Virus record (IMG/VR): IMGVR_UViG_3300030379_000127
Location: 1 to 22,899 of that record
DNA length: 22,899 bases
Origin: a virus
Taxonomy: Duplodnaviria > Heunggongvirae > Uroviricota > Caudoviricetes
Reading direction: 5' to 3' (one strand)
A program made the position numbers and the translations under genes. The notes beneath the pieces are model-generated. The model saw only the letters and a list, made by a program, of their open reading frames with translations, did no database searches and was not told the DNA's origin. Shown piece after piece: positions 8,011 to 14,443 of this stretch (the stretch's first letter is position 1; each line of letters opens with the position of its first letter).

Positions 8011-8238
8011 TTACAGCTCAGATTGAGTTTGGCGCTTCTCTACAGGATGATAACGATAAATCGTCGATACACCGATATCGTAAATAATTGCCAACTGTTT
8101 CCTGCTGTAGCCATTTTCGATCAACCTCGCTATTTGCTCATGTTGTTCTTTTGTCAACTTCGGGCGACGTCCGCCAATGCGTCCCTGTTCGCGTGCAGCT
8201 GCCAGTCCGGCCAGTGTTCTCTCAACAATTAATTCACG
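8011..8238 (-). pseudogene. cin: Serine DNA-invertase, detached C-terminal (helix-turn-helix) fragment
   Basis: Minus-strand translation RELIVERTLAGLAAAREQGRIGGRRPKLTKEQHEQIARLIENGYSRKQLAIIYDIGVSTIYRYHP matches the C-terminal DNA-binding region of Gin/Cin/Hin/Min invertases. Homology starts abruptly at 8238, at a crossover core; the ORF sequence upstream of it is unrelated antisense of cassette 1. Confidence 0.85.
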
Positions 8239-8252
8239 TTGGTTTGGGGGAA
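8227..8252. other. Hybrid crossover site (junction B): aattaattcacg-TT-ggtttgggggaa
   Basis: Right half-site ggtttgggggaa is identical to the cassette sites; the left half is invertase coding sequence. The TT core at 8239..8240 is the breakpoint. Confidence 0.75.
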
Positions 8253-8705
8253 GGCTCAGCATTGCCTGTTGGCGTACCTGTTCCGTGGCCCTCAGCCACT
8301 CCGCCAACGGGGTGGCTGAAATGTAACGGAGCAGCATTTTCTTCTGAAAAGTACCCAAATCTGGCAAAGGCTTACCCTACTAATAAATTGCCGGATTTAC
8401 GCGGTGAATTTATTCGTGGCTGGGATGACGGACGTGGTGTGGATGCCGGGCGACAATTATTATCTTCACAGGGGGATGCAATAAGAAATATTGAGGGGTT
8501 CGCAGATGGCGGGATCGGCATGTCTTTTGATGCAATCAGAGGGGCTTTTTACGATGCAGGAACACGATCAGCGAGAATGCCGAATAACACAACTACTATA
8601 GACAAAACCGATGACCTTGGATTCGACGCCTCTCGTGTCGTGCCAACAGCTAATGAAAACCGTCCTCGTAATATTGCCTTTAATTATATCGTAAGGGCGG
8701 CATAA
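8241..8705 (+). CDS. Tail-fibre C-terminal cassette 1 (promoterless 3' gene segment)
   Basis: Reads GLGEGSALPVGVPVPWPSATPPTGWLKCNGAAFSSEKYPNLAKAYPTNKLPDLRGEFIRGWDDGRG, then a unique core, then RPRNIAFNYIVRAA-stop. No start codon or RBS of its own. Confidence 0.75.
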   Translation, partial: GLGEGSALPVGVPVPWPSATPPTGWLKCNGAAFSSEKYPNLAKAYPTNKLPDLRGEFIRGWDDGRGVDAGRQLLSSQGDAIRNIEGFADGGIGMSFDAIRGAFYDAGTRSARMPNNTTTIDKTDDLGFDASRVVPTANENRPRNIAFNYIVRAA

Positions 8706-8724
8706 AAACGTTGGTTTGGGGGAA
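8699..8724 (+). other. Crossover site 2: ggcataaaaacg-TT-ggtttgggggaa
   Basis: 26-bp site with a 2-bp core; resembles gix/hix (TTATCnAAAACC-nn-GGTTTnnnGAAA-like). The left half overlaps the stop codon of cassette 1. Confidence 0.7.
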
Positions 8725-9144
8725 GGCTCTGCACTGCCTGTTGGTGTGCCCGTTCCGTGGCCCTTAGAAACACCACCAACGGGCTGGCTAAAATGCAATG
8801 GTGCAGCATTTTCTTCTGAAATGTATCCCAAACTGGCAAAAGCCTACCCCACCAATAAATTACCGGATTTACGCGGTGAATTTATCCGTGGCTGGGATGA
8901 TGGGCGCGGGATTGATGCGGGACGTACCCTGCTTTCAGGGCAGGATGGTACAAGTTTTTCTCATTACGGAGGTAATTTCGACATTGGGTCTGGTCATTCA
9001 ATCAATAACTATGACCAAATTGTTTCTAACCAACCAGGATTTTCCCGTTTTTCATTTGCAGGGCCTTCACGAGGTGATGGGGTTAATTATGTAACCATTC
9101 GTCCTCGTAACATTGCGTTTAATTATATCGTAAGGGCGGCATGA
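8713..9144 (+). CDS. Tail-fibre C-terminal cassette 2
   Basis: Conserved 5' end (GLGEGSALPVGVPVPWPLETPPTGWLKCNGAAFSSEMYPKLAKAYPTNKLPDLRGEFIRGWDDGRGID), unique core, conserved 3' end RPRNIAFNYIVRAA. Confidence 0.75.
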   Translation, partial: GLGEGSALPVGVPVPWPLETPPTGWLKCNGAAFSSEMYPKLAKAYPTNKLPDLRGEFIRGWDDGRGIDAGRTLLSGQDGTSFSHYGGNFDIGSGHSINNYDQIVSNQPGFSRFSFAGPSRGDGVNYVTIRPRNIAFNYIVRAA

Positions 9145-9163
9145 AAACGTTGGTTTAGGGGAA
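9138..9163 (+). other. Crossover site 3: ggcatgaaaacg-TT-ggtttaggggaa
   Basis: Same architecture as site 2; overlaps the stop codon of cassette 2. Confidence 0.7.
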
Positions 9164-9658
9164 GGCTCGGCGCTGCCCGTTGGTGTACCTATTCCATGGC
9201 CCTCAGCCACACCGCCAACGGGGTGGCTGAAATGCAATGGTGCAGCATTTTCTTCTGAAAAGTACCCAAATCTGGCAAAGGTTTACCCAACGTTAAAATT
9301 ACCTGATTTACGCGGTGAATTTATCCGTGGCTGGGATGATGGGCGCGGGGTGGATGCTGGCCGCGCTTTGCTTAATTGGCAGCCACACACAATTTTGGAC
9401 CATGCACACTATATGGAATTATGGACAGGGGACGGACTCGCCGCAGGAAGTGCACGGGAAGGCGTAAATCCAGGAATACTAGCTACATACGGTGACGGGG
9501 GAATAGTTAAAACGGACGAACCCGGTCATAAGGTGCCTTCCTCACTACGAGCTATTAGCTCTCGTAGTGTTAAACGTTATGGTGAAATTAGTGGAAATGT
9601 AGGTACAGAAACTCGCCCTCGCAACGTTGCATTTAATTACATCGTAAGGGCGGCATAA
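9152..9658 (+). CDS. Tail-fibre C-terminal cassette 3
   Basis: In-frame translation from the site gives GLGEGSALPVGVPIPWPSATPPTGWLKCNG...GWDDGRGVDAGRALLNW..., ending ETRPRNVAFNYIVRAA. The ORF track lists only the 3' part (9350..9658) because there is no in-frame start codon upstream, consistent with a silent cassette. Confidence 0.7.
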   Translation, partial: GLGEGSALPVGVPIPWPSATPPTGWLKCNGAAFSSEKYPNLAKVYPTLKLPDLRGEFIRGWDDGRGVDAGRALLNWQPHTILDHAHYMELWTGDGLAAGSAREGVNPGILATYGDGGIVKTDEPGHKVPSSLRAISSRSVKRYGEISGNVGTETRPRNVAFNYIVRAA

Positions 9659-9677
9659 AAACGTTGGTTTAGGGGAA
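9652..9677 (+). other. Crossover site 4: ggcataaaaacg-TT-ggtttaggggaa
   Basis: Conserved 26-bp site overlapping the stop codon of cassette 3. Confidence 0.7.
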
Positions 9678-10136
9678 GGCTCTGCACTGCCTGTTGGTGT
9701 GCCCGTTCCGTGGCCCTTAGAAACACCACCAACGGGCTGGCTAAAATGCAATGGTGCAGCATTTTCTTCTGAAATGTATCCCAAACTGGCAAAGGCTTAC
9801 CCTACTAATAAATTGCCGGATTTACGCGGTGAATTTATTCGTGGCTGGGATGACGGGCGGGGGATTGACTCTGGCCGTAATTTATTATCTGCACAGAATG
9901 ATGCAATTCAGAATATTGTTGGTTCTTTCGGGCGTACTCAGCTTTTTAGAGATGTACTTAGTTCAGGGCCATTTAGTCAACATGGTCAAGTATTATCTAC
10001 AGGCCTAAAGGAAACGGAAATTATTGAGGGTTATGGCTCTTATAACTGGACATTCGACGCCTCTCGCTCAGTTCGTACAGCATCTGAAACCCGCCCCCGT
10101 AATATTGCATTTAATTACATCGTAAGGGCGGCATAA
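9666..10136 (+). CDS. Tail-fibre C-terminal cassette 4
   Basis: Conserved 5' and 3' ends, unique core (...LLSAQNDAIQNIVGSFGRTQLFRDVLSSGPFSQHGQVLSTGLKETEIIEGYGSYNWTFDASRSV...). Confidence 0.75.
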   Translation, partial: GLGEGSALPVGVPVPWPLETPPTGWLKCNGAAFSSEMYPKLAKAYPTNKLPDLRGEFIRGWDDGRGIDSGRNLLSAQNDAIQNIVGSFGRTQLFRDVLSSGPFSQHGQVLSTGLKETEIIEGYGSYNWTFDASRSVRTASETRPRNIAFNYIVRAA

Positions 10137-10155
10137 AAACGTTGGTTTAGGGGAA
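10130..10155 (+). other. Crossover site 5: ggcataaaaacg-TT-ggtttaggggaa
   Basis: Conserved 26-bp site overlapping the stop codon of cassette 4. Confidence 0.7.
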
Positions 10156-10650
10156 GGCTCGGCGCTGCCCGTTGGTGTGCCTGTTCCGTGGCCCTCCGCC
10201 ACACCACCAACGGGGTGGCTGAAATGTAACGGAGCAGCATTTTCTTCTGAAAAGTACCCAAATCTGGCAAAGGTTTACCCAACGTTAAAATTACCTGATT
10301 TACGCGGTGAGTTTATCCGTGGTTGGGATGATTCGAGAGGGATTGATACAGGGCGTTCATTGCTAAGTGGTCAGACTGCAACATTTATTCGTACAGCTTT
10401 GCAGGATTATTACGGTGTCGATCTGACTACTAATGTCAAAGTAGGTATCGCTTATGCTACTGCTGATTCTGTTATAACTGTTGGAAACCCTGCTAATCCT
10501 AAAGCAGGAGATAATAGCGATTATGTTCCAGCATCATCAGATAACTCCATAACAGGCACTCAAAGGACGGCAGAGGATAATTTTACCGGGGCATGGATAT
10601 CAATGCGCCCCCGCAACGTTGCTTTTAATTACATTGTAAGGGCCACATAA
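10144..10650 (+). CDS. Tail-fibre C-terminal cassette 5
   Basis: Conserved 5' end, unique core, conserved 3' end (RPRNVAFNYIVRAT). Confidence 0.75.
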   Translation, partial: GLGEGSALPVGVPVPWPSATPPTGWLKCNGAAFSSEKYPNLAKVYPTLKLPDLRGEFIRGWDDSRGIDTGRSLLSGQTATFIRTALQDYYGVDLTTNVKVGIAYATADSVITVGNPANPKAGDNSDYVPASSDNSITGTQRTAEDNFTGAWISMRPRNVAFNYIVRAT

Positions 10651-10669
10651 AAACGTTGGTTTAGGGGAA
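10644..10669 (+). other. Crossover site 6: cacataaaaacg-TT-ggtttaggggaa
   Basis: Conserved 26-bp site overlapping the stop codon of cassette 5. Confidence 0.7.
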
Positions 10670-11158
10670 GGCTCGGCGCTGCCCGTTGGTGTGCCTGTTC
10701 CGTGGCCCTCAGCCACACCGCCAACGGGGTGGCTGAAATGCAATGGTGCAGCATTTTCTTCTGAAAAGTACCCAAATCTGGCAAAGGTTTACCCAACGTT
10801 AAAATTACCTGATTTACGCGGTGAGTTTATCCGTGGCTGGGATGATGGGCGAGGGATTGACTCTGGTCGCTCTATTTTAAGCGAGCAAGGATATGCAACG
10901 GAGGATCATGCTCACGGATTACCGTCAAAATCAACCGTAGCAACTGACCGCTCAATTAATTTCTACTTTGACGAGGCATGGGCTACTAGTGGTAATACGG
11001 GAGTTATCAGATGGGGGAACACAAGCGATGCAGGATTGCCAGCCCCTAATTATGGAACTTTTAAAACATATAAACAGTCCGTAGCTAATTTAGGTACTGC
11101 TGGCTTAGAAACCCGCCCTCGTAATATTGCATTTAATTATATTGTGAGGGCGGATTAA
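10658..11158 (+). CDS. Tail-fibre C-terminal cassette 6 (last of the plus-strand array)
   Basis: Conserved 5' end, unique core, 3' end RPRNIAFNYIVRAD-stop. No crossover site follows; it abuts the 3' end of the convergent tail-fibre-assembly gene. Confidence 0.75.
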   Translation, partial: GLGEGSALPVGVPVPWPSATPPTGWLKCNGAAFSSEKYPNLAKVYPTLKLPDLRGEFIRGWDDGRGIDSGRSILSEQGYATEDHAHGLPSKSTVATDRSINFYFDEAWATSGNTGVIRWGNTSDAGLPAPNYGTFKTYKQSVANLGTAGLETRPRNIAFNYIVRAD

Positions 11159-11163
11159 TTATA

Positions 11164-11775
11164 TCAACTGGCTGTAGAAAGTTGTTTTTCAGGCCAGTTG
11201 AGATCTGGTGCCGTGGTTAAATCCATCGCGTTCAGCTCGTCTATATAATCTAGCACGGAGTTAAGCTGCGTGGTTTCTGCCTGCGTCAACTTCCGTCCAG
11301 CCCGTAATTTCAACTGAATCAGACTAATGGAATCCATCGCAGTATCAATCAATGACTGACGTTTTGTTTCTGCTGCCTCTACAGCTGCACTATGTTGAGC
11401 CTCAGTATCAACCACCCATTTCTCTCCATCCCATTTGTCGTATGGTGTTAGCGGGGCGATAGTGGTTGTATTTTCCGGATAGTCACCCAACACCGTGATT
11501 TCTTCGGGATTCCCAGTGTCAATGCTATAGACAGTTTCGCCACGATGATCTGGCACATACTCCCATGAACTTAAATCCTCTGAACGGAGAATCGCATAAC
11601 CTGCTTTATGTGAGCCTGGAGCATCCAAACAAGAATTTGCCGGAATACCAACGCCAACAGCAAGATATTCAGTTGATGCAGAAATATATTCCCGATTACC
11701 ACCATCATAGTTATAAACGATAATGTTTCCTGCCTGTATGGCTATAAGTTCGCTATTTAATATCGCATTATCCAT
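11164..11775 (-). CDS. Tail-fibre assembly chaperone (Tfa/U-like, 203 aa)
   Basis: Start overlaps the cassette 7 stop (TAATG). C-terminal region (LIQLKLRAGRKLTQAETTQLNSVLDYIDELNAMDLTTAPDLNWPEKQ) fits the conserved C-terminal pattern of caudoviral tail-fibre assembly proteins. It is the only such gene in the array. Confidence 0.6.
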   Translation of the reverse strand: MDNAILNSELIAIQAGNIIVYNYDGGNREYISASTEYLAVGVGIPANSCLDAPGSHKAGYAILRSEDLSSWEYVPDHRGETVYSIDTGNPEEITVLGDYPENTTTIAPLTPYDKWDGEKWVVDTEAQHSAAVEAAETKRQSLIDTAMDSISLIQLKLRAGRKLTQAETTQLNSVLDYIDELNAMDLTTAPDLNWPEKQLSTAS

Positions 11776-12236
11776 TATGCTGCTCTCACAATATAATTGA
11801 AGGCAATGTTACGTGGGCGGGTTTCATTCCCCCCAGATAACTCCGTTCTGTATTGACTGGTAAATTTACCATTAATCGCTCCTTGCCGGACGGCGTTATC
11901 TGTCGACAACAGACTATCCCCCCCTCTGTCATTTGGCACCAATACCGTGTTATCCCACGCGTCCCATGACCGAATATTATGATAATGACTTCCTGTTAAC
12001 CACCCCTGTATGCTTAAGATGACCCTTCCCGCATCCACACCTCGCCCATCATCCCAACCACGGATAAACTCACCGCGTAAATCCGGTAATTTATTGGTGG
12101 GGTAGGCCTTTGCCAGTTTGGGATACATTTCAGAAGAAAATGCTGCACCATTGCATTTTAGCCAGCCCGTTGGTGGTGTTTCTAAGGGCCACGGAACGGG
12201 CACACCAACAGGCAGTGCAGAGCCTTCCCCCAAACC
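11775..12236 (-). CDS. Tail-fibre C-terminal cassette 7 (opposite orientation to cassettes 1-6, co-oriented with tfa)
   Basis: Minus-strand translation (G)LGEGSALPVGVPVPWPLETPPTGWLKCNGAAFSSEMYPKLAKAYPTNKLPDLRGEFIRGWDDGRGVDAGR...ETRPRNIAFNYIVRAA; begins at crossover site 7. Confidence 0.75.
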   Translation of the reverse strand, partial: GLGEGSALPVGVPVPWPLETPPTGWLKCNGAAFSSEMYPKLAKAYPTNKLPDLRGEFIRGWDDGRGVDAGRVILSIQGWLTGSHYHNIRSWDAWDNTVLVPNDRGGDSLLSTDNAVRQGAINGKFTSQYRTELSGGNETRPRNIAFNYIVRAA

Positions 12237-12250
12237 AACGTTTTAGTCTT
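12225..12250 (-). other. Crossover site 7 (inverted): reverse complement aagactaaaacg-TT-ggtttgggggaa
   Basis: Same right half-site as the other cassettes but in inverted orientation; its outer flank leads into the invertase 5' region (SD aagagg at 12289..12294, ATG at 12305). Confidence 0.7.
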
Positions 12251-12304
12251 AATCCCTACCTATACCAACGATGTATTTTTAACTAAACAAAGAGGTTGTT
12301 TTTC

Positions 12305-12742
12305 ATGCAAATTGGCTACATTCGTGTGTCAACAAATGACCAAAACACAGATTTACAAAGAAATGCACTGAACTGCGCAGGATGTGAACTGATTTTTGAA
12401 GATAAAATAAGCGGAACAAAGTCAGCCAGACCAGGCTTGAAAAAGCTGCTCAGAACGTTATCAGAAGGAGATACGCTGGTTGTCTGGAAGCTGGATAGGC
12501 TTGGCAGAAGTATGAAACACCTTATCACGCTTATAGAGGAGTTGCGGGAAAAAGGTGTTAATTTCCGTAGTCTGACAGACAGTATTGACACATCAACACC
12601 CATGGGGCGTTTCTTTTTTCATGTCATGGGTGCTTTAGCAGAAATGGAAGGTAATCAAGAACGCTCTGAATACTGGTCTTACCAAGAATGGCGCGTCCAA
12701 CACTTGTCAATGCAGTTAACGCGGCACGATCAACACCTGTGA
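12305..12742 (+). pseudogene. cin: Serine DNA-invertase, N-terminal catalytic fragment (about 115 aa of homology, then 30 unrelated codons)
   Basis: MQIGYIRVSTNDQNTDLQRNALNCAGCELIFEDK...LVVWKLDRLGRSMKHL...SLTDSIDTSTPMGRFFFHVMGALAEME is a typical resolvase/invertase catalytic domain with the active-site Ser in RVSTNDQ. Homology stops at 12649, at the AA core; the rest of the ORF is antisense of the tail-fibre 3' end. Confidence 0.85.
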
Positions 12743-13997
12743 AATAAGGGAGTTTATCTGCTGCTGTAGCTAGTGCCGCTAGAGCAGTGAGCGTAGCGTC
12801 TGCCGCTTGCTTTCCATTAGCCAAATCATATGCAGCCTTGACAGCTTTCGGTGTGGCGGCCAGCACTTCGGACGTGCTATTGGTAGCACTGCTGAGTTGG
12901 ACTATCCCTTTTTGAGCCGTGGTTGCATCCTGGGCTGTATACTTCCCGTTAGCCAAATCATATGCAGCCTTGACAGCTTTCGGTGTGGCGGCCAGCACTT
13001 CAGACGTGCTGTTAGTGGCACTACTGAGCTGAGTGATGCCTTTCGCTGTCAATGAAGCTGTTGGCACACCAGTGATCTGATTCCAGGGATGTGTATGACT
13101 GGATGGTGCCTTTCCGGCTGCTAGATCGTATGCAGCTTTAACCGCTTTTGGAGTTGCAGCTAATGTTTCAGAAGTGCTGTTGGTGTCGCTACTGAGCTGA
13201 ACTATCCCTTTTTGTGTCGTGGTTGCATCCTGGGCTGTATACTTCCCGTTAGCCAGGTCATATGCAGCCTTGACAGCTTTCGGTGTGGCGGCCAGCACTT
13301 CAGACGTGCTGTTAGTGGCACTACTGAGCTGAACTAATCCCTTTTGCGTTGTGCTTGCATCCTGCGCCGTATACTTGCTTTTCGCCAGATCGTAGGCTTT
13401 TTTAACTGCCAGCGAACTCGCAGCAACATCACTTCTGGTACTGGTTACAGAGTCTGAAATATCAATGCCGATCGTGCGGTTGATACGCTCGGATGTATCA
13501 ATCATCTCTTGAGTAATGGTAGATACGCCAGCAGGGATATTCACCGTACAAACCAGCAGTTCCCCATCACCTAACTGATATGAATCGGTATAGGTTCTGG
13601 CAACAAATTCAGCTGCATGAATATGTGACGCGGTATTCACCTGATAGGTATCTTCTCCAAGAAGGTATCTTCCCTTCAGCACAATTGCATATTTCTTGCC
13701 TGCGTTAAGTGCAAGAGAGATATCCTTACGATGCTGAATAGTTACCTGGTAGAATTCACCAATATCCACTGACGCCGCGCCAGCGGTTTTATCTCCATCC
13801 ACTGAGGTGATTAACAGGTTCATCCCACCGCCAGGCTTAGGCAAGAAACCAGCATAAAATCCCGGGTCAACAATTCCCCTGAATTTTCGGTTTAGAGCGG
13901 CTGACAGATATGGTTCGTGGTATTGCACATCAGCCACCAGAGCCAACGACTCGGGTGATGGGTAAGTAACCGATGTAACAACTGTAACGTCATTCAT
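12624..13997 (-). CDS. Tail-fibre protein, constant N-terminal portion, disconnected from all C-terminal cassettes
   Basis: Start MNDVTVV with SD aagga 8 nt upstream (the ORF track's 14084 start overlaps the upstream gene). Contains the tail-fibre repeat KYTAQDATTTQKGIVQLSSATNSTSEVLAATPKAVKAAYDLANG about four times. Ends ...SIQSVLDYL then PFLLKHP-stop, where a cassette (GLGEGSALPVG...) would be expected. Confidence 0.8.
   Translation of the reverse strand: MNDVTVVTSVTYPSPESLALVADVQYHEPYLSAALNRKFRGIVDPGFYAGFLPKPGGGMNLLITSVDGDKTAGAASVDIGEFYQVTIQHRKDISLALNAGKKYAIVLKGRYLLGEDTYQVNTASHIHAAEFVARTYTDSYQLGDGELLVCTVNIPAGVSTITQEMIDTSERINRTIGIDISDSVTSTRSDVAASSLAVKKAYDLAKSKYTAQDASTTQKGLVQLSSATNSTSEVLAATPKAVKAAYDLANGKYTAQDATTTQKGIVQLSSDTNSTSETLAATPKAVKAAYDLAAGKAPSSHTHPWNQITGVPTASLTAKGITQLSSATNSTSEVLAATPKAVKAAYDLANGKYTAQDATTAQKGIVQLSSATNSTSEVLAATPKAVKAAYDLANGKQAADATLTALAALATAADKLPYFTGVDRAALTALTSVGRAILGKTSIQSVLDYLPFLLKHP
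12636..12661. other. Hybrid crossover site (junction A): tagcagaaatgg-AA-ggtaatcaagaa
   Basis: Right of the AA core (12648..12649) is the fibre constant-region half-site (reverse complement TTCTTGATTACC, like the hix left half TTCTTGAAAACC); left of it is invertase coding sequence. Confidence 0.75.
12810..13425. repeat. Tandem 111-bp (37-codon) repeats inside the tail-fibre constant region, about 4.5 copies
   Basis: Near-identical DNA blocks (for example gccagcacttc(g/a)gacgtgct(a/g)tt(g/a)gt(a/g)gcact(g/a)ctgag...) recur with 111-bp period; the plus-strand antisense ORF 12807..13055 shows the same periodicity. Confidence 0.8.
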
Positions 13998-14008
13998 CAA
14001 GCATATCC

Positions 14009-14443
14009 TTATGCTGTAGTCGAGTTTATGGCCATAACTGCGGTATATGTTTTGCCCACATACAGCGAGTCTTCCTGGACACAAATAATGGCGATTGGCT
14101 TATTCTCGTTATCCAGAACAACCAGAGTGTTGAATGGGTAGTTTTTCCCTTCCTGCAACTGACTTTGATCAAGGTCCATTCGGACAGTAATTATCCCGCC
14201 TGAGTAGGTTGGGACGAGGTTGATGGTGCAAAATTGACTGGTCAGTTCTGCCAGATCGAAAGCCTTAGGCAGTTCTCCAATCTCATAAGTGCCATCTCCT
14301 TTCTTAGTAACCAGTGAACTGGTACCAAAAACGGCCTTGCTGATTAAAAATCGAGAGCCTTTGTTAATGGACGATTCAGCGCGCCGCTGATAGTAATAGT
14401 CCAACAACTGACTCTTATAGAGGTTTGTTGAGACGTCAGACAT
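14009..14443 (-). CDS. Tail-fibre operon protein upstream of the fibre gene (144 aa), positionally like P1 R
   Basis: Intact ORF ending 11 nt before the fibre start codon; no motif recognised, assignment by position only. Confidence 0.4.
   Translation of the reverse strand: MSDVSTNLYKSQLLDYYYQRRAESSINKGSRFLISKAVFGTSSLVTKKGDGTYEIGELPKAFDLAELTSQFCTINLVPTYSGGIITVRMDLDQSQLQEGKNYPFNTLVVLDNENKPIAIICVQEDSLYVGKTYTAVMAINSTTA

What the first reader, a model, noticed from the sequence alone, without database searches (positions are those of the whole stretch)
8241..12236. Cassette 5' regions fall into two sequence families, with cassette 1 a mosaic
The first roughly 180 bp after each site is nearly identical within two groups. 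Cassettes 2, 4 and 7 encode ...PLETPPTGWLKCNGAAFSSEMYPKLAKAYPTNKLPDLRGEFIRGWDDGRG(I/V)D. Cassettes 3, 5 and 6 encode ...PSATPPTGWLKCNGAAFSSEKYPNLAKVYPTLKLPDLRGEFIRGWDD(G/S)RG. Cassette 1 begins like the second group (PSATPP...SSEKYPNLAK) and then switches to the first (AYPTNKLPDL, with matching DNA aaggcttaccctactaataaattgccggattta). That pattern suggests gene conversion or homologous exchange between cassettes. These long direct repeats are also substrates for RecA-dependent deletion, independent of the invertase.
Basis: seen in the sequence. Interest (0 to 1): 0.5.

Follow-up and report, generated by a model that had tools for sequence, protein, structure and literature searches.

The report
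Recombining tail-fibre cassette starts, P1-like plasmid
The seven swappable tail-fibre tips of this P1-like phage-plasmid share a roughly 200-base start that has been patched together by homologous recombination between the copies; this is real but ordinary, because the array is almost identical to the long-known p15B "Min" multiple-inversion region.

Summary
Seven cassettes start at the motif GTTGGTTT[AG]GGGGAAGGCTC. Over their first 200 nt, c2/c4/c7 form one group (95-98% identical) and c3/c5/c6 another (93-97.5%); between groups identity is 83.5-88%. Cassette 1 is c5-like at nt 42-123 and c4-like at nt 134-196 (MaxChi p=0.0002; Rm=4; PHI-like p=0.0002).

The region is a p15B Min-type multiple-inversion tail-fibre array in a P1-like phage-plasmid. 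Its unique DNA is 99.9% identical to pMCR_SCKP-LL83. The conserved start holds half of the 26-bp crossover site and the code for a tail Collar domain.

Cassette 1's mosaic was not made in this molecule: the same allele is in three other complete plasmids. Its second half matches only c4 at DNA level, so it is a third haplotype, and c4 is equally mosaic. In relatives the same variable body carries different starts. The differences from pMCR_SCKP-LL83 are clustered patches that copy a neighbouring cassette. This indicates non-reciprocal homologous exchange. RecA-dependent deletion is plausible (arrays hold 2 to 15 or more cassettes) but is not shown.

Noticed in passing: the invertase gene is split by an exact inversion between the fibre's crossover site and a cryptic site inside the invertase gene.

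The parts
8238..8705 (+). Cassette 1 (155 codons). Its 5' conserved block is 8238-8437 and its variable body about 8453-8645. Its left half-site now comes from the invertase gene. Mosaic breakpoints lie at 8273-8279 and 8360-8371.
   Evidence: Pfam Collar PF07484 at aa 12-59, E=3e-15
8710..9144 (+). Cassette 2 (group A); 26-bp crossover site at 8699-8724
   Evidence: differs from the pMCR_SCKP-LL83 orthologue at one base in 435 nt
9149..9658 (+). Cassette 3 (group B). A patch at 9191-9214 (nt 43-66) differs from the pMCR_SCKP-LL83 orthologue and equals that plasmid's c6-type cassette.
9663..10136 (+). Cassette 4 (group A at nt 1-123, c1-like at nt 132-196). It carries a window-specific 4-base patch at 9775-9785 (TTCA, as in c2/c7; the other six complete plasmids with this body have ACAT).
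10141..10650 (+). Cassette 5 (group B); 510/510 identical to the pMCR_SCKP-LL83 orthologue
10655..11158 (+). Cassette 6 (group B). It carries a window-specific patch at 10693-10702 (G39, G43, G48, as in c5).
11775..12239 (-). Cassette 7 (group A), the only cassette in inverted orientation; crossover site at 12225-12250
   Evidence: (inverted repeats I1-I6)
11164..11775 (-). The single tail-fibre assembly (chaperone) gene, downstream of cassette 7
   Evidence: Pfam Caudo_TAP E=3e-30; 612/612 identical to pMCR_SCKP-LL83
12305..12649 (+). N-terminal 115 codons of the Min-type serine invertase (catalytic domain), cut off at the hybrid site 12636-12661
   Evidence: Pfam Resolvase E=9e-43; reconstruction
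8011..8238 (-). C-terminal part of the same invertase gene (helix-turn-helix domain), joined to cassette 1 at the TT core 8239-8240
   Evidence: Pfam HTH_7 E=7e-16
12650..13997 (-). Constant part of tail-fibre gene S (Sc). It now runs into antisense invertase sequence and stops after 6 extra codons (stop at 12624-12626).
   Evidence: five Phage_fiber_2 repeats; about 94% identical to P1/P7 Sc

Best explanation
The region is a p15B Min-type multiple-inversion tail-fibre array of a P1-like phage-plasmid. A constant fibre shaft gene (Sc) can be joined, by a Hin/Gin/Cin/Min-family serine invertase acting at 26-bp sites, to any of seven alternative 3' cassettes.

Each cassette starts with the right half of the crossover site and about 190 nt that code for the same Collar domain. 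A cassette-specific receptor-binding body follows, and then a conserved end (RPRNIAFNYIVRA).

All cassettes share the collar-coding stretch at 84-100% identity, so it is a substrate for homologous recombination. Short non-reciprocal transfers (gene conversion) between cassettes move blocks of mostly synonymous polymorphisms from one cassette to another. The transfers can occur within one array or between co-resident related phages. This yields a few haplotype groups and mosaics such as cassettes 1 and 4.

Shown here: the block structure; identical bodies carrying different 5' alleles; patches that copy neighbouring cassettes; and linkage to the body that decays towards the crossover site.

Inferred: that the host RecA pathway or a phage recombination function does this, and that the same homology drives gain and loss of cassettes.
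For: System identity.
- There are seven sites with the core TT.
- Domains found: resolvase + HTH_7 invertase, Collar domains, Caudo_TAP and Phage_fiber_2.
- The gene order is P1-like.
- Unique DNA differs at 3 of 2791 nt from pMCR_SCKP-LL83. That plasmid's invertible region is reported as 99% identical to p15B min (PMC5786510).
- The sites fit the published invertase consensus. A 227-bp imperfect repeat around such a site is already described for EC958 prophage Phi2 (PMC4134206).

Recombination.
- MaxChi p=0.0002, Rm=4 and PHI-like p=0.0002.
- Between the groups, 16 of 26 differing bases lie in synonymous codon changes, while the bodies are unrelated (47-64% identical). Neither purifying selection nor recent duplication explains 100% identity over 90 nt.
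- In 10 complete plasmids, same-body cassettes differ 5 times more in nt 1-200 (mean identity 0.967) than in the rest of the cassette (0.994).
- The c1 body occurs there with five 5' alleles, whose nt 1-81 are A-like, c5-like or c1-like while nt 87-200 stay constant.
- In three IMG/VR loci (L046, L062, L068) the c1 body, 99.3% identical, sits behind a 5' region that is only 77% identical.
- Against pMCR_SCKP-LL83, all 11 differences in the 5' regions fall in three clusters, and each base equals a paralogue's base. The presumed donors (c2/c7, c5) are unchanged, so the transfers were non-reciprocal.
- The ratio of same-body to different-body mismatch falls from about 0.7 at nt 1-75 to 0.04 at nt 201-225.
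Against: An excess of 5' similarity within arrays appeared in the IMG/VR loci (0.896 vs 0.835). It was not reproduced in complete plasmids (0.880 vs 0.882). That signal probably reflects lineage structure, or short-read assemblies, rather than ongoing homogenisation.

The two window-specific patches (c4 9775-9785, c6 10693-10702) could be polishing artefacts from reads mis-mapped between repeats; no read data are available.

The direction of each transfer, and whether the donor lay in the same molecule, are not proven. RecA dependence is untested. No Chi site lies in the array.
Confidence: 0.8

Rival explanations
1. The groups reflect descent only. Cassettes of one group are recent duplicates, and the shared blocks are inherited rather than exchanged.
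For: c1 and c4 share both the nt 132-196 haplotype and the most similar bodies (64%), so that block may be shared by descent. c1's allele is stable across four plasmids.
Against: c2, c4 and c7 are 100% identical over nt 41-130, yet their bodies are 53-58% identical. The same body carries up to five different 5' alleles. Of the informative-site pairs, 149 of 406 fail the four-gamete test, and the failures are spatially clustered.
Confidence: 0.08
2. The two 5' types are selected protein variants matched to particular receptor-binding bodies (co-adaptation or convergence), not products of exchange.
For: The groups differ at five protein positions: LET/SAT, M/K, K/N, A/V and N/L.
Against: Most differences between the groups are synonymous (16 of 26 bases). 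The same body is found with A-like, B-like and other 5' regions in different plasmids.
Confidence: 0.04
3. The invertase itself makes the mosaics. It would do so either by recombining at secondary sites inside the 5' region, or by making breaks at the crossover site that are then repaired from another cassette.
For: Linkage to the body is weakest next to the crossover site. The same enzyme family demonstrably used a cryptic site in this window. The patches in c6 and c3 could start at the site.
Against: The breakpoints lie at many positions (nt 36/39, 56/57, 81/87, 93/113, 123/132), none resembling a site. The c4 patch excludes nt 9, so it did not start at the site. A gradient towards the site is also expected from plain linkage decay.
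Confidence: 0.08
4. Part of the mosaicism is an assembly or polishing artefact of 200-bp repeats.
For: The provenance of the window is unknown. IMG/VR contigs show far more 5' alleles (157 distinct alleles) than complete plasmids (33). Spurious contigs from such regions are documented (PMC4134206) and were seen here (CP088785.1).
Against: The c1, c2, c5 and c7 5' regions are base-for-base identical in an independent complete plasmid. Alternative alleles recur in several independently sequenced complete plasmids.
Confidence: 0.1

Closest known systems
Min multiple DNA inversion region of plasmid p15B (Sandmeier et al. 1990, 1991, 1992; Iida et al. 1990; titles seen in reference lists)
   Same: Both have a P1-related plasmid backbone and a serine invertase next to a cluster of crossover sites. 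In both, one constant tail-fibre gene is joined to several alternative 3' segments, and there is a single tail-fibre assembly gene. The window's unique DNA is 99.9% identical to pMCR_SCKP-LL83, whose inversion region is reported as 99% identical to p15B min.
   Different: The window has seven cassettes; pMCR_SCKP-LL83 has nine, and from memory p15B is described with six sites. The window carries three small converted patches. Its invertase and S genes are broken by an inversion through a cryptic site. The p15B sequence and papers could not be read here.
Cin/C-segment of phage P1 and Gin/G-segment of phage Mu
   Same: The invertase family, the 26-bp site type and the purpose are the same: switching the tail-fibre C-terminus and host range. 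Sc is about 94% identical to P1/P7 Sc.
   Different: P1 and Mu have two sites and two alternative Sv-U sets, each with its own chaperone (from memory). Here there are seven short cassettes, and they share one chaperone gene.
Invertible tail-fibre region of E. coli EC958 prophage Phi2 (Forde et al. 2014, PMC4134206)
   Same: The site sequence is nearly the same (GAGAGATAAACGTT GGTTTGGGGGAA). [quoted passage not shown] This is the same long 5' homology as described in this finding.
   Different: Phi2 is a chromosomal prophage with two sites and a single 2-kb invertible segment.
R64 shufflon (Rci, pilV)
   Same: Many alternative C-terminal cassettes are joined to one constant gene by multiple inversions.
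   Different: It uses a tyrosine recombinase and a conjugative pilus adhesin, and its sequences are unrelated.
Gene conversion in repeated antigen or adhesin cassettes (for example Neisseria pilE/pilS)
   Same: Non-reciprocal transfer of short tracts occurs between partly homologous silent and expressed cassettes.
   Different: Here conversion affects the conserved framework rather than the variable, receptor-binding part. The programmed switch is site-specific inversion.

Membership tests
Hin/Gin/Cin/Pin/Min ('Din') serine DNA-invertase switching system | A small serine recombinase with an N-terminal resolvase catalytic domain and a C-terminal HTH_7 domain | tested here: met
   Pfam Resolvase E=9e-43 and HTH_7 E=7e-16 on the two gene halves. 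The re-joined gene gives 190 aa, 190/190 identical to WP_001165547.1 of pe1-39_A. In the window as it stands, the gene is split.
Hin/Gin/Cin/Pin/Min ('Din') serine DNA-invertase switching system | 26-bp imperfectly palindromic crossover sites with a central dinucleotide, placed at the constant/variable junction of the target gene | tested here: met
   Seven sites of the form ...AAAACG TT GGTTT(A/G)GGGGAA. They match the consensus and the EC958 Phi2 sites tabulated in PMC4134206. The reading frame is continuous across the site in the reconstructed S gene.
Hin/Gin/Cin/Pin/Min ('Din') serine DNA-invertase switching system | Evidence that the segments actually invert | tested here: met
   The same cassette bodies occur in different orders and orientations in ten complete plasmids. 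The window itself carries an exact reciprocal inversion at a TT core.
Hin/Gin/Cin/Pin/Min ('Din') serine DNA-invertase switching system | A Fis-dependent recombinational enhancer in cis (within the 5' part of the invertase gene in Hin, Gin and Cin) | not tested
   No scan was made. Fis sites are too degenerate for a reliable call.
p15B Min multiple-inversion region | More than two crossover sites, giving overlapping invertible segments and several alternative 3' ends for one tail-fibre gene on a P1-related plasmid | tested here: met
   There are seven sites, six direct and one inverted. The flanking genes are P1-type: darA, hdf, lyd, R, baseplate and sit homologues.
p15B Min multiple-inversion region | Sequence identity to the p15B min region itself | tested here: inconclusive
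   The evidence is indirect only: 99.9% identity to pMCR_SCKP-LL83 in unique DNA, plus that paper's statement of 92% coverage and 99% identity to p15B min. The p15B record (X62121) is not in the collections searched.
Phage Tail Collar domain (PF07484) | A score above Pfam's gathering threshold | tested here: met
   55-56 bits against a cut-off of 24, at aa 12-59 of every cassette tested. PDB relatives: 9cuy short tail fibre E=4e-32, T4 gp37 2xgf E=2e-15 and T4 gp12 1ocy.
Gene conversion / homologous exchange among paralogous cassettes | Polymorphisms in blocks, with phylogenetic incompatibility that is spatially clustered | tested here: met
   MaxChi p=0.0002; 149/406 incompatible pairs, Rm=4, PHI-like p=0.0002.
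Gene conversion / homologous exchange among paralogous cassettes | The recipient changes to the donor's bases while the donor stays unchanged (non-reciprocal) | tested here: met
   The c4 patch equals c2/c7 and the c6 patch equals c5, while c2, c5 and c7 are unchanged relative to pMCR_SCKP-LL83. Both patches are unique among ten complete plasmids. A polishing artefact is not excluded.
Gene conversion / homologous exchange among paralogous cassettes | Dependence on RecA or a phage recombinase | not testable with these tools
   This needs genetics.

The most novel reading that the evidence does not exclude
Double-strand breaks that the invertase makes at the crossover sites may seed homologous repair from other cassettes. 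Site-specific inversion and gene conversion would then be mechanistically coupled, and the collar-coding homology would act as a built-in second layer of tail-fibre diversification. The same promiscuity lets the enzyme occasionally destroy its own gene through a cryptic site, as in this window, which freezes the array.
Probability: 0.1. Interest if true: 0.5.

Novelty: already known. Interest (0 to 1): 0.25.

Why it matters
Tail-fibre tips decide which bacteria a phage or phage-plasmid can enter, and P1-like plasmids carry resistance genes such as mcr-1. The shared collar-coding stretch lets receptor-binding bodies be re-attached and moved between arrays and between phage types by ordinary homologous recombination. 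That helps explain why the same bodies turn up in about 2000 of 5426 complete E. coli genomes, on plasmids and on chromosomes. For this window, however, the result is confirmatory. The array is a close copy of one sequenced in 1991, and the mosaic allele is inherited. The practical lesson is for annotation and assembly: these repeats produce spurious contigs and possibly polishing errors.

Tried and rejected
1. Within-array homogenisation (concerted evolution). It was significant in the mixed IMG/VR set but absent in ten complete plasmids. I dropped it as a general claim.

2. A deletion footprint for the two cassettes that pMCR_SCKP-LL83 has and the window lacks. The hybrid 5' regions do not match the expected products; the c6 patch matches c5, not the missing cassette. 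The result is inconclusive.

3. Chi sites as a recombination hotspot. There are none in the array.

4. The same split-invertase junctions elsewhere. An 80-nt query across each junction found no contiguous match in 5426 E. coli genomes or in 72,556 plasmids. Exact 17-19-nt junction strings were absent from the 70 loci held at the time.

5. Reading the original p15B papers (PMC206102, PMC329034) and the P1 genome paper (PMC523184). None is held.

6. A literature search for Cin quasi-sites returned only irrelevant clinical papers.

7. Conversion tracts initiated at the crossover site. The c4 patch excludes nt 9, so this is not general.

8. Structure prediction was not run, because the Pfam and PDB sequence matches already place the Collar domain.

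Full report
**What is in the window.** The region 8011-14084 belongs to a P1-like phage-plasmid.

- On the minus strand lies the constant part of tail-fibre gene S. It has five Phage_fiber_2 repeats and is about 94% identical to P1/P7 Sc.
- Seven short cassettes each begin with GTTGGTTT[AG]GGGGAAGGCTC. Six are on the plus strand (8238, 8710, 9149, 9663, 10141, 10655) and one is on the minus strand (12239).
- Each cassette runs 144-169 codons to a stop just before the next site. Each ends with ...RPRN(I/V)AFNYIVRA.
- A single tail-fibre assembly gene (Caudo_TAP, 11164-11775, minus strand) follows cassette 7.
- The flanking genes have the P1 order: darA, hdf, lyd on one side and R, baseplate, sit on the other.

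The sites have the form AAAACG-TT-GGTTT(A/G)GGGGAA. They fit the 26-bp consensus for Hin/Gin/Cin/Min invertases and are almost the same as those tabulated for E. coli EC958 prophage Phi2. That paper already notes that the site lies inside a 227-bp imperfect repeat encoding a Tail Collar domain (PMC4134206).

**Checking the observation.** The seven cassette starts align without gaps for about 200 nt.

| Comparison, nt 1-200 | Identity |
|---|---|
| Within c2/c4/c7 | 95-98% (100% over nt 41-130) |
| Within c3/c5/c6 | 93-97.5% |
| Between the two groups | 83.5-88% |

Eighteen positions are fixed differences between the groups. The variable bodies are only 47-64% identical.

Cassette 1 follows group B, and most closely c5, at nt 42-123. 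It follows c4 at nt 134-196. The informative-site pattern against c5/c4 is 0011011111111111000000000000000, and the MaxChi permutation gives p=0.0002. Among 29 informative sites, 149 of 406 pairs fail the four-gamete test. The minimum number of recombination events is 4, and a PHI-like permutation gives p=0.0002.

At DNA level the second half of c1 matches only c4 (97%); it is 86-87% identical to c2 and c7, so nt 130-200 has three haplotypes. Also, c4 is itself mosaic by the same test: against c2/c1 it breaks between nt 123 and 132, with p=0.0002.

**What the conserved start encodes.** Residues 12-59 of every cassette tested are a Phage Tail Collar domain (PF07484, about 55 bits against a cut-off of 24). 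The whole of cassette 1 aligns with a solved short tail fibre (9cuy, E=4e-32). Its first half aligns with the collar regions of T4 gp37 (2xgf) and gp12 (1ocy).

The roughly 200-nt block therefore consists of half a crossover site plus a shared structural adaptor between the shaft and the receptor-binding tip. Protein constraint explains why it is conserved. It does not explain 100% nucleotide identity over 90 nt between cassettes with unrelated bodies. It also does not explain why 16 of the 26 bases that differ between c2 and c6 lie in synonymous codon changes.

**Relatives.** The array type is common.

- It matches 244 PLSDB plasmids.
- It matches 2134 records in 2043 of 5426 complete E. coli genomes, on both plasmids and chromosomes.
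- A scan of IMG/VR with the site motif gave 67 further loci.

The closest complete relative examined is pMCR_SCKP-LL83 (MF510496.1, locus L071). [quoted passage not shown]

| Window DNA compared with L071 | Mismatches |
|---|---|
| lyd region | 3 / 1543 |
| Invertase C-terminal part | 0 / 228 |
| Assembly gene | 0 / 612 |
| Intergenic plus invertase N-terminal part | 0 / 408 |

P1-like plasmids with Min-like invertases have also been noted by others (PMC6906374). The window is therefore a p15B Min-type array, a system known since 1990-92.

**Is cassette 1 a new mosaic?** No. The 5' regions of c1, c2, c5 and c7 are base-for-base identical to their counterparts in L071. Among ten complete plasmids, c1's allele also occurs in L075 and L078.

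In other plasmids the same c1 body carries a different nt 1-81: A-like in L002 and L077, and c5-like in L073. Its nt 87-200 never change. c1 and c4 also have the most similar bodies (64%). The c1/c4 haplotype at nt 132-196 is therefore best read as native to that pair of bodies, with the stretch nearer the site overwritten in different ways.

**Evidence that exchange really happens.**

1. In the ten complete plasmids, cassettes with the same body differ five times more in nt 1-200 (mean identity 0.967) than in the rest of the cassette (0.994). Bodies carry up to five different 5' alleles.
2. In the wider set, the c1 body at 99.3% identity sits behind a 5' region that is only 77% identical in three loci (L046, L062, L068).
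3. Against L071, the 11 differences in the seven 5' regions form three clusters, and every changed base equals the base of another cassette:
   - c4, nt 113/117/120/123: TTCA in the window, as in c2/c7; ACAT in L071.
   - c6, nt 39/43/48: GGG, as in c5.
   - c3, nt 43-66: equal to L071's c6-type cassette.
4. The presumed donors are unchanged, so the transfers were non-reciprocal. The c4 and c6 alleles are unique to the window among the complete plasmids, so they are probably recent.
5. Linkage between the 5' sequence and its body decays towards the site. The ratio of same-body to different-body mismatch is about 0.7 at nt 1-75 and 0.04 at nt 201-225.

The breakpoints fall at many positions, which fits homologous recombination rather than a second recombinase site.

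**Caveats.** An apparent excess of similarity among cassettes of one array vanished when only complete plasmids were used (0.880 vs 0.882). I do not claim ongoing array-wide homogenisation.

IMG/VR contigs, many presumably from short reads, show many more alleles than complete plasmids do. Some of these may be chimeric. The two window-specific patches could be polishing artefacts, and no reads are available to check.

RecA dependence is inferred, not shown. The array contains no Chi site.

**Deletion.** Arrays range from 2 cassettes (pToe51-2) through 7-9 to at least 15 with repeated members (pMTY9975). One IMG/VR locus has two identical copies of a cassette in tandem.

I found no diagnostic hybrid junction for the two cassettes that the window lacks relative to L071. 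Invertases of this family can also delete between direct sites at low frequency; a paper on Gin 'inversions and deletions' is cited.

**A second feature, outside the finding.** The invertase gene is in two pieces.

- Codons 1-115 lie at 12305-12649 on the plus strand.
- The remainder lies at 8238-8011 on the minus strand.
- The junctions read TAATTCACG-TT-GGTTTGGGG (at 8239-8240) and, on the minus strand, GATTACC-TT-CCATTTCTGC (at 12649-12648).

Re-inverting 8241-12647 in silico restores a 190-aa invertase that is 190/190 identical to that of pe1-39_A. It also restores an S gene reading ...SVLDYL-GLGEGSALP... into cassette 1. The restored arrangement is collinear with relatives, in which the invertase is intact.

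The event was therefore an exact reciprocal inversion between the fibre's crossover site and a weakly similar cryptic site with the same TT core inside the invertase's own coding sequence. This is the behaviour described for Cin 'quasi sites' (titles of Iida and Hiestand-Nauer 1986 and 1987, in the reference list seen).

The inversion truncates both the invertase and the tail fibre. Neither junction occurs contiguously in 5426 E. coli genomes or in 72,556 plasmids.

**Verdict.** The gene-conversion reading is supported in substance, but cassette 1 is an inherited allele and not the only mosaic. The whole structure is a close copy of a long-known system, so interest is low to modest.

Noticed in passing
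window 8011-8240 (-) and 12305-12661 (+): The serine invertase gene is split by an exact reciprocal inversion of 8241-12647. The inversion joined the tail-fibre crossover site to a cryptic TT-core site inside the invertase coding sequence (codons ...AEME|RELI...). It truncates both the invertase and tail-fibre gene S. Re-inversion in silico restores both. No identical junction was found in 5426 E. coli genomes or in 72,556 plasmids.
   Followed up: yes
window 11164-11775 (-); L071, L002, L073-L078: The array has only one tail-fibre assembly (chaperone) gene, always directly downstream of the cassette-7 body type. The other cassettes have none, unlike P1 and Mu, where (from memory) each alternative fibre end has its own chaperone.
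   Followed up: partly
CP088785.1 (L072, 2058 bp); also NZ_CP148414.1 (2415 bp) and NZ_JBQJRS010000014.1 (2380 bp): Public assemblies contain tiny 'circular plasmids' made only of cassette, assembly gene and inverted cassette. They are probably assembly by-products of mixed inversion states, as reported for EC958, rather than real replicons or excised circles.
   Followed up: partly
L077 (NZ_CP135665.1) and L054:10849-11872: Some arrays are greatly expanded: L077 has at least 15 cassettes, with several bodies present two or three times in both orientations. L054 has two 510-nt copies of one cassette in tandem, 100% identical.
   Followed up: partly
L002 (NZ_AP040955.1) 8266-10517: An IS21-family element (ISEc10, istA/istB) is inserted inside the cassette array of plasmid pe1-39_A.
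   Followed up: no
L046, L062, L068, L040 (IMG/VR loci); The same receptor-binding bodies (for example the cassette-1 body at 99.3% identity) also occur behind a much more divergent 5' collar-coding block (77% identical). In L040 the site context matches that of chromosomal prophage Phi2 of EC958. In the E. coli search, 4206 of the 5661 matching places are chromosomal. Bodies therefore move between different phage types.
   Followed up: partly
window 12810-13464 (-): The constant part of S contains 223-nt direct repeats (69-86% identical) that correspond to the Phage_fiber_2 repeat units. The window is only 95% identical to pMCR_SCKP-LL83 there, against 99-100% in flanking DNA, which suggests separate exchange in the shaft repeats.
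   Followed up: no
window 8516-8602 (cassette 1 body, nt 279-365): The six differences between the cassette-1 body and its pMCR_SCKP-LL83 counterpart lie within 87 nt. The pMCR_SCKP-LL83 state at these positions appears to recur in cassettes of this body type at L043 and L044. This looks like an allelic patch rather than independent mutations.
   Followed up: no
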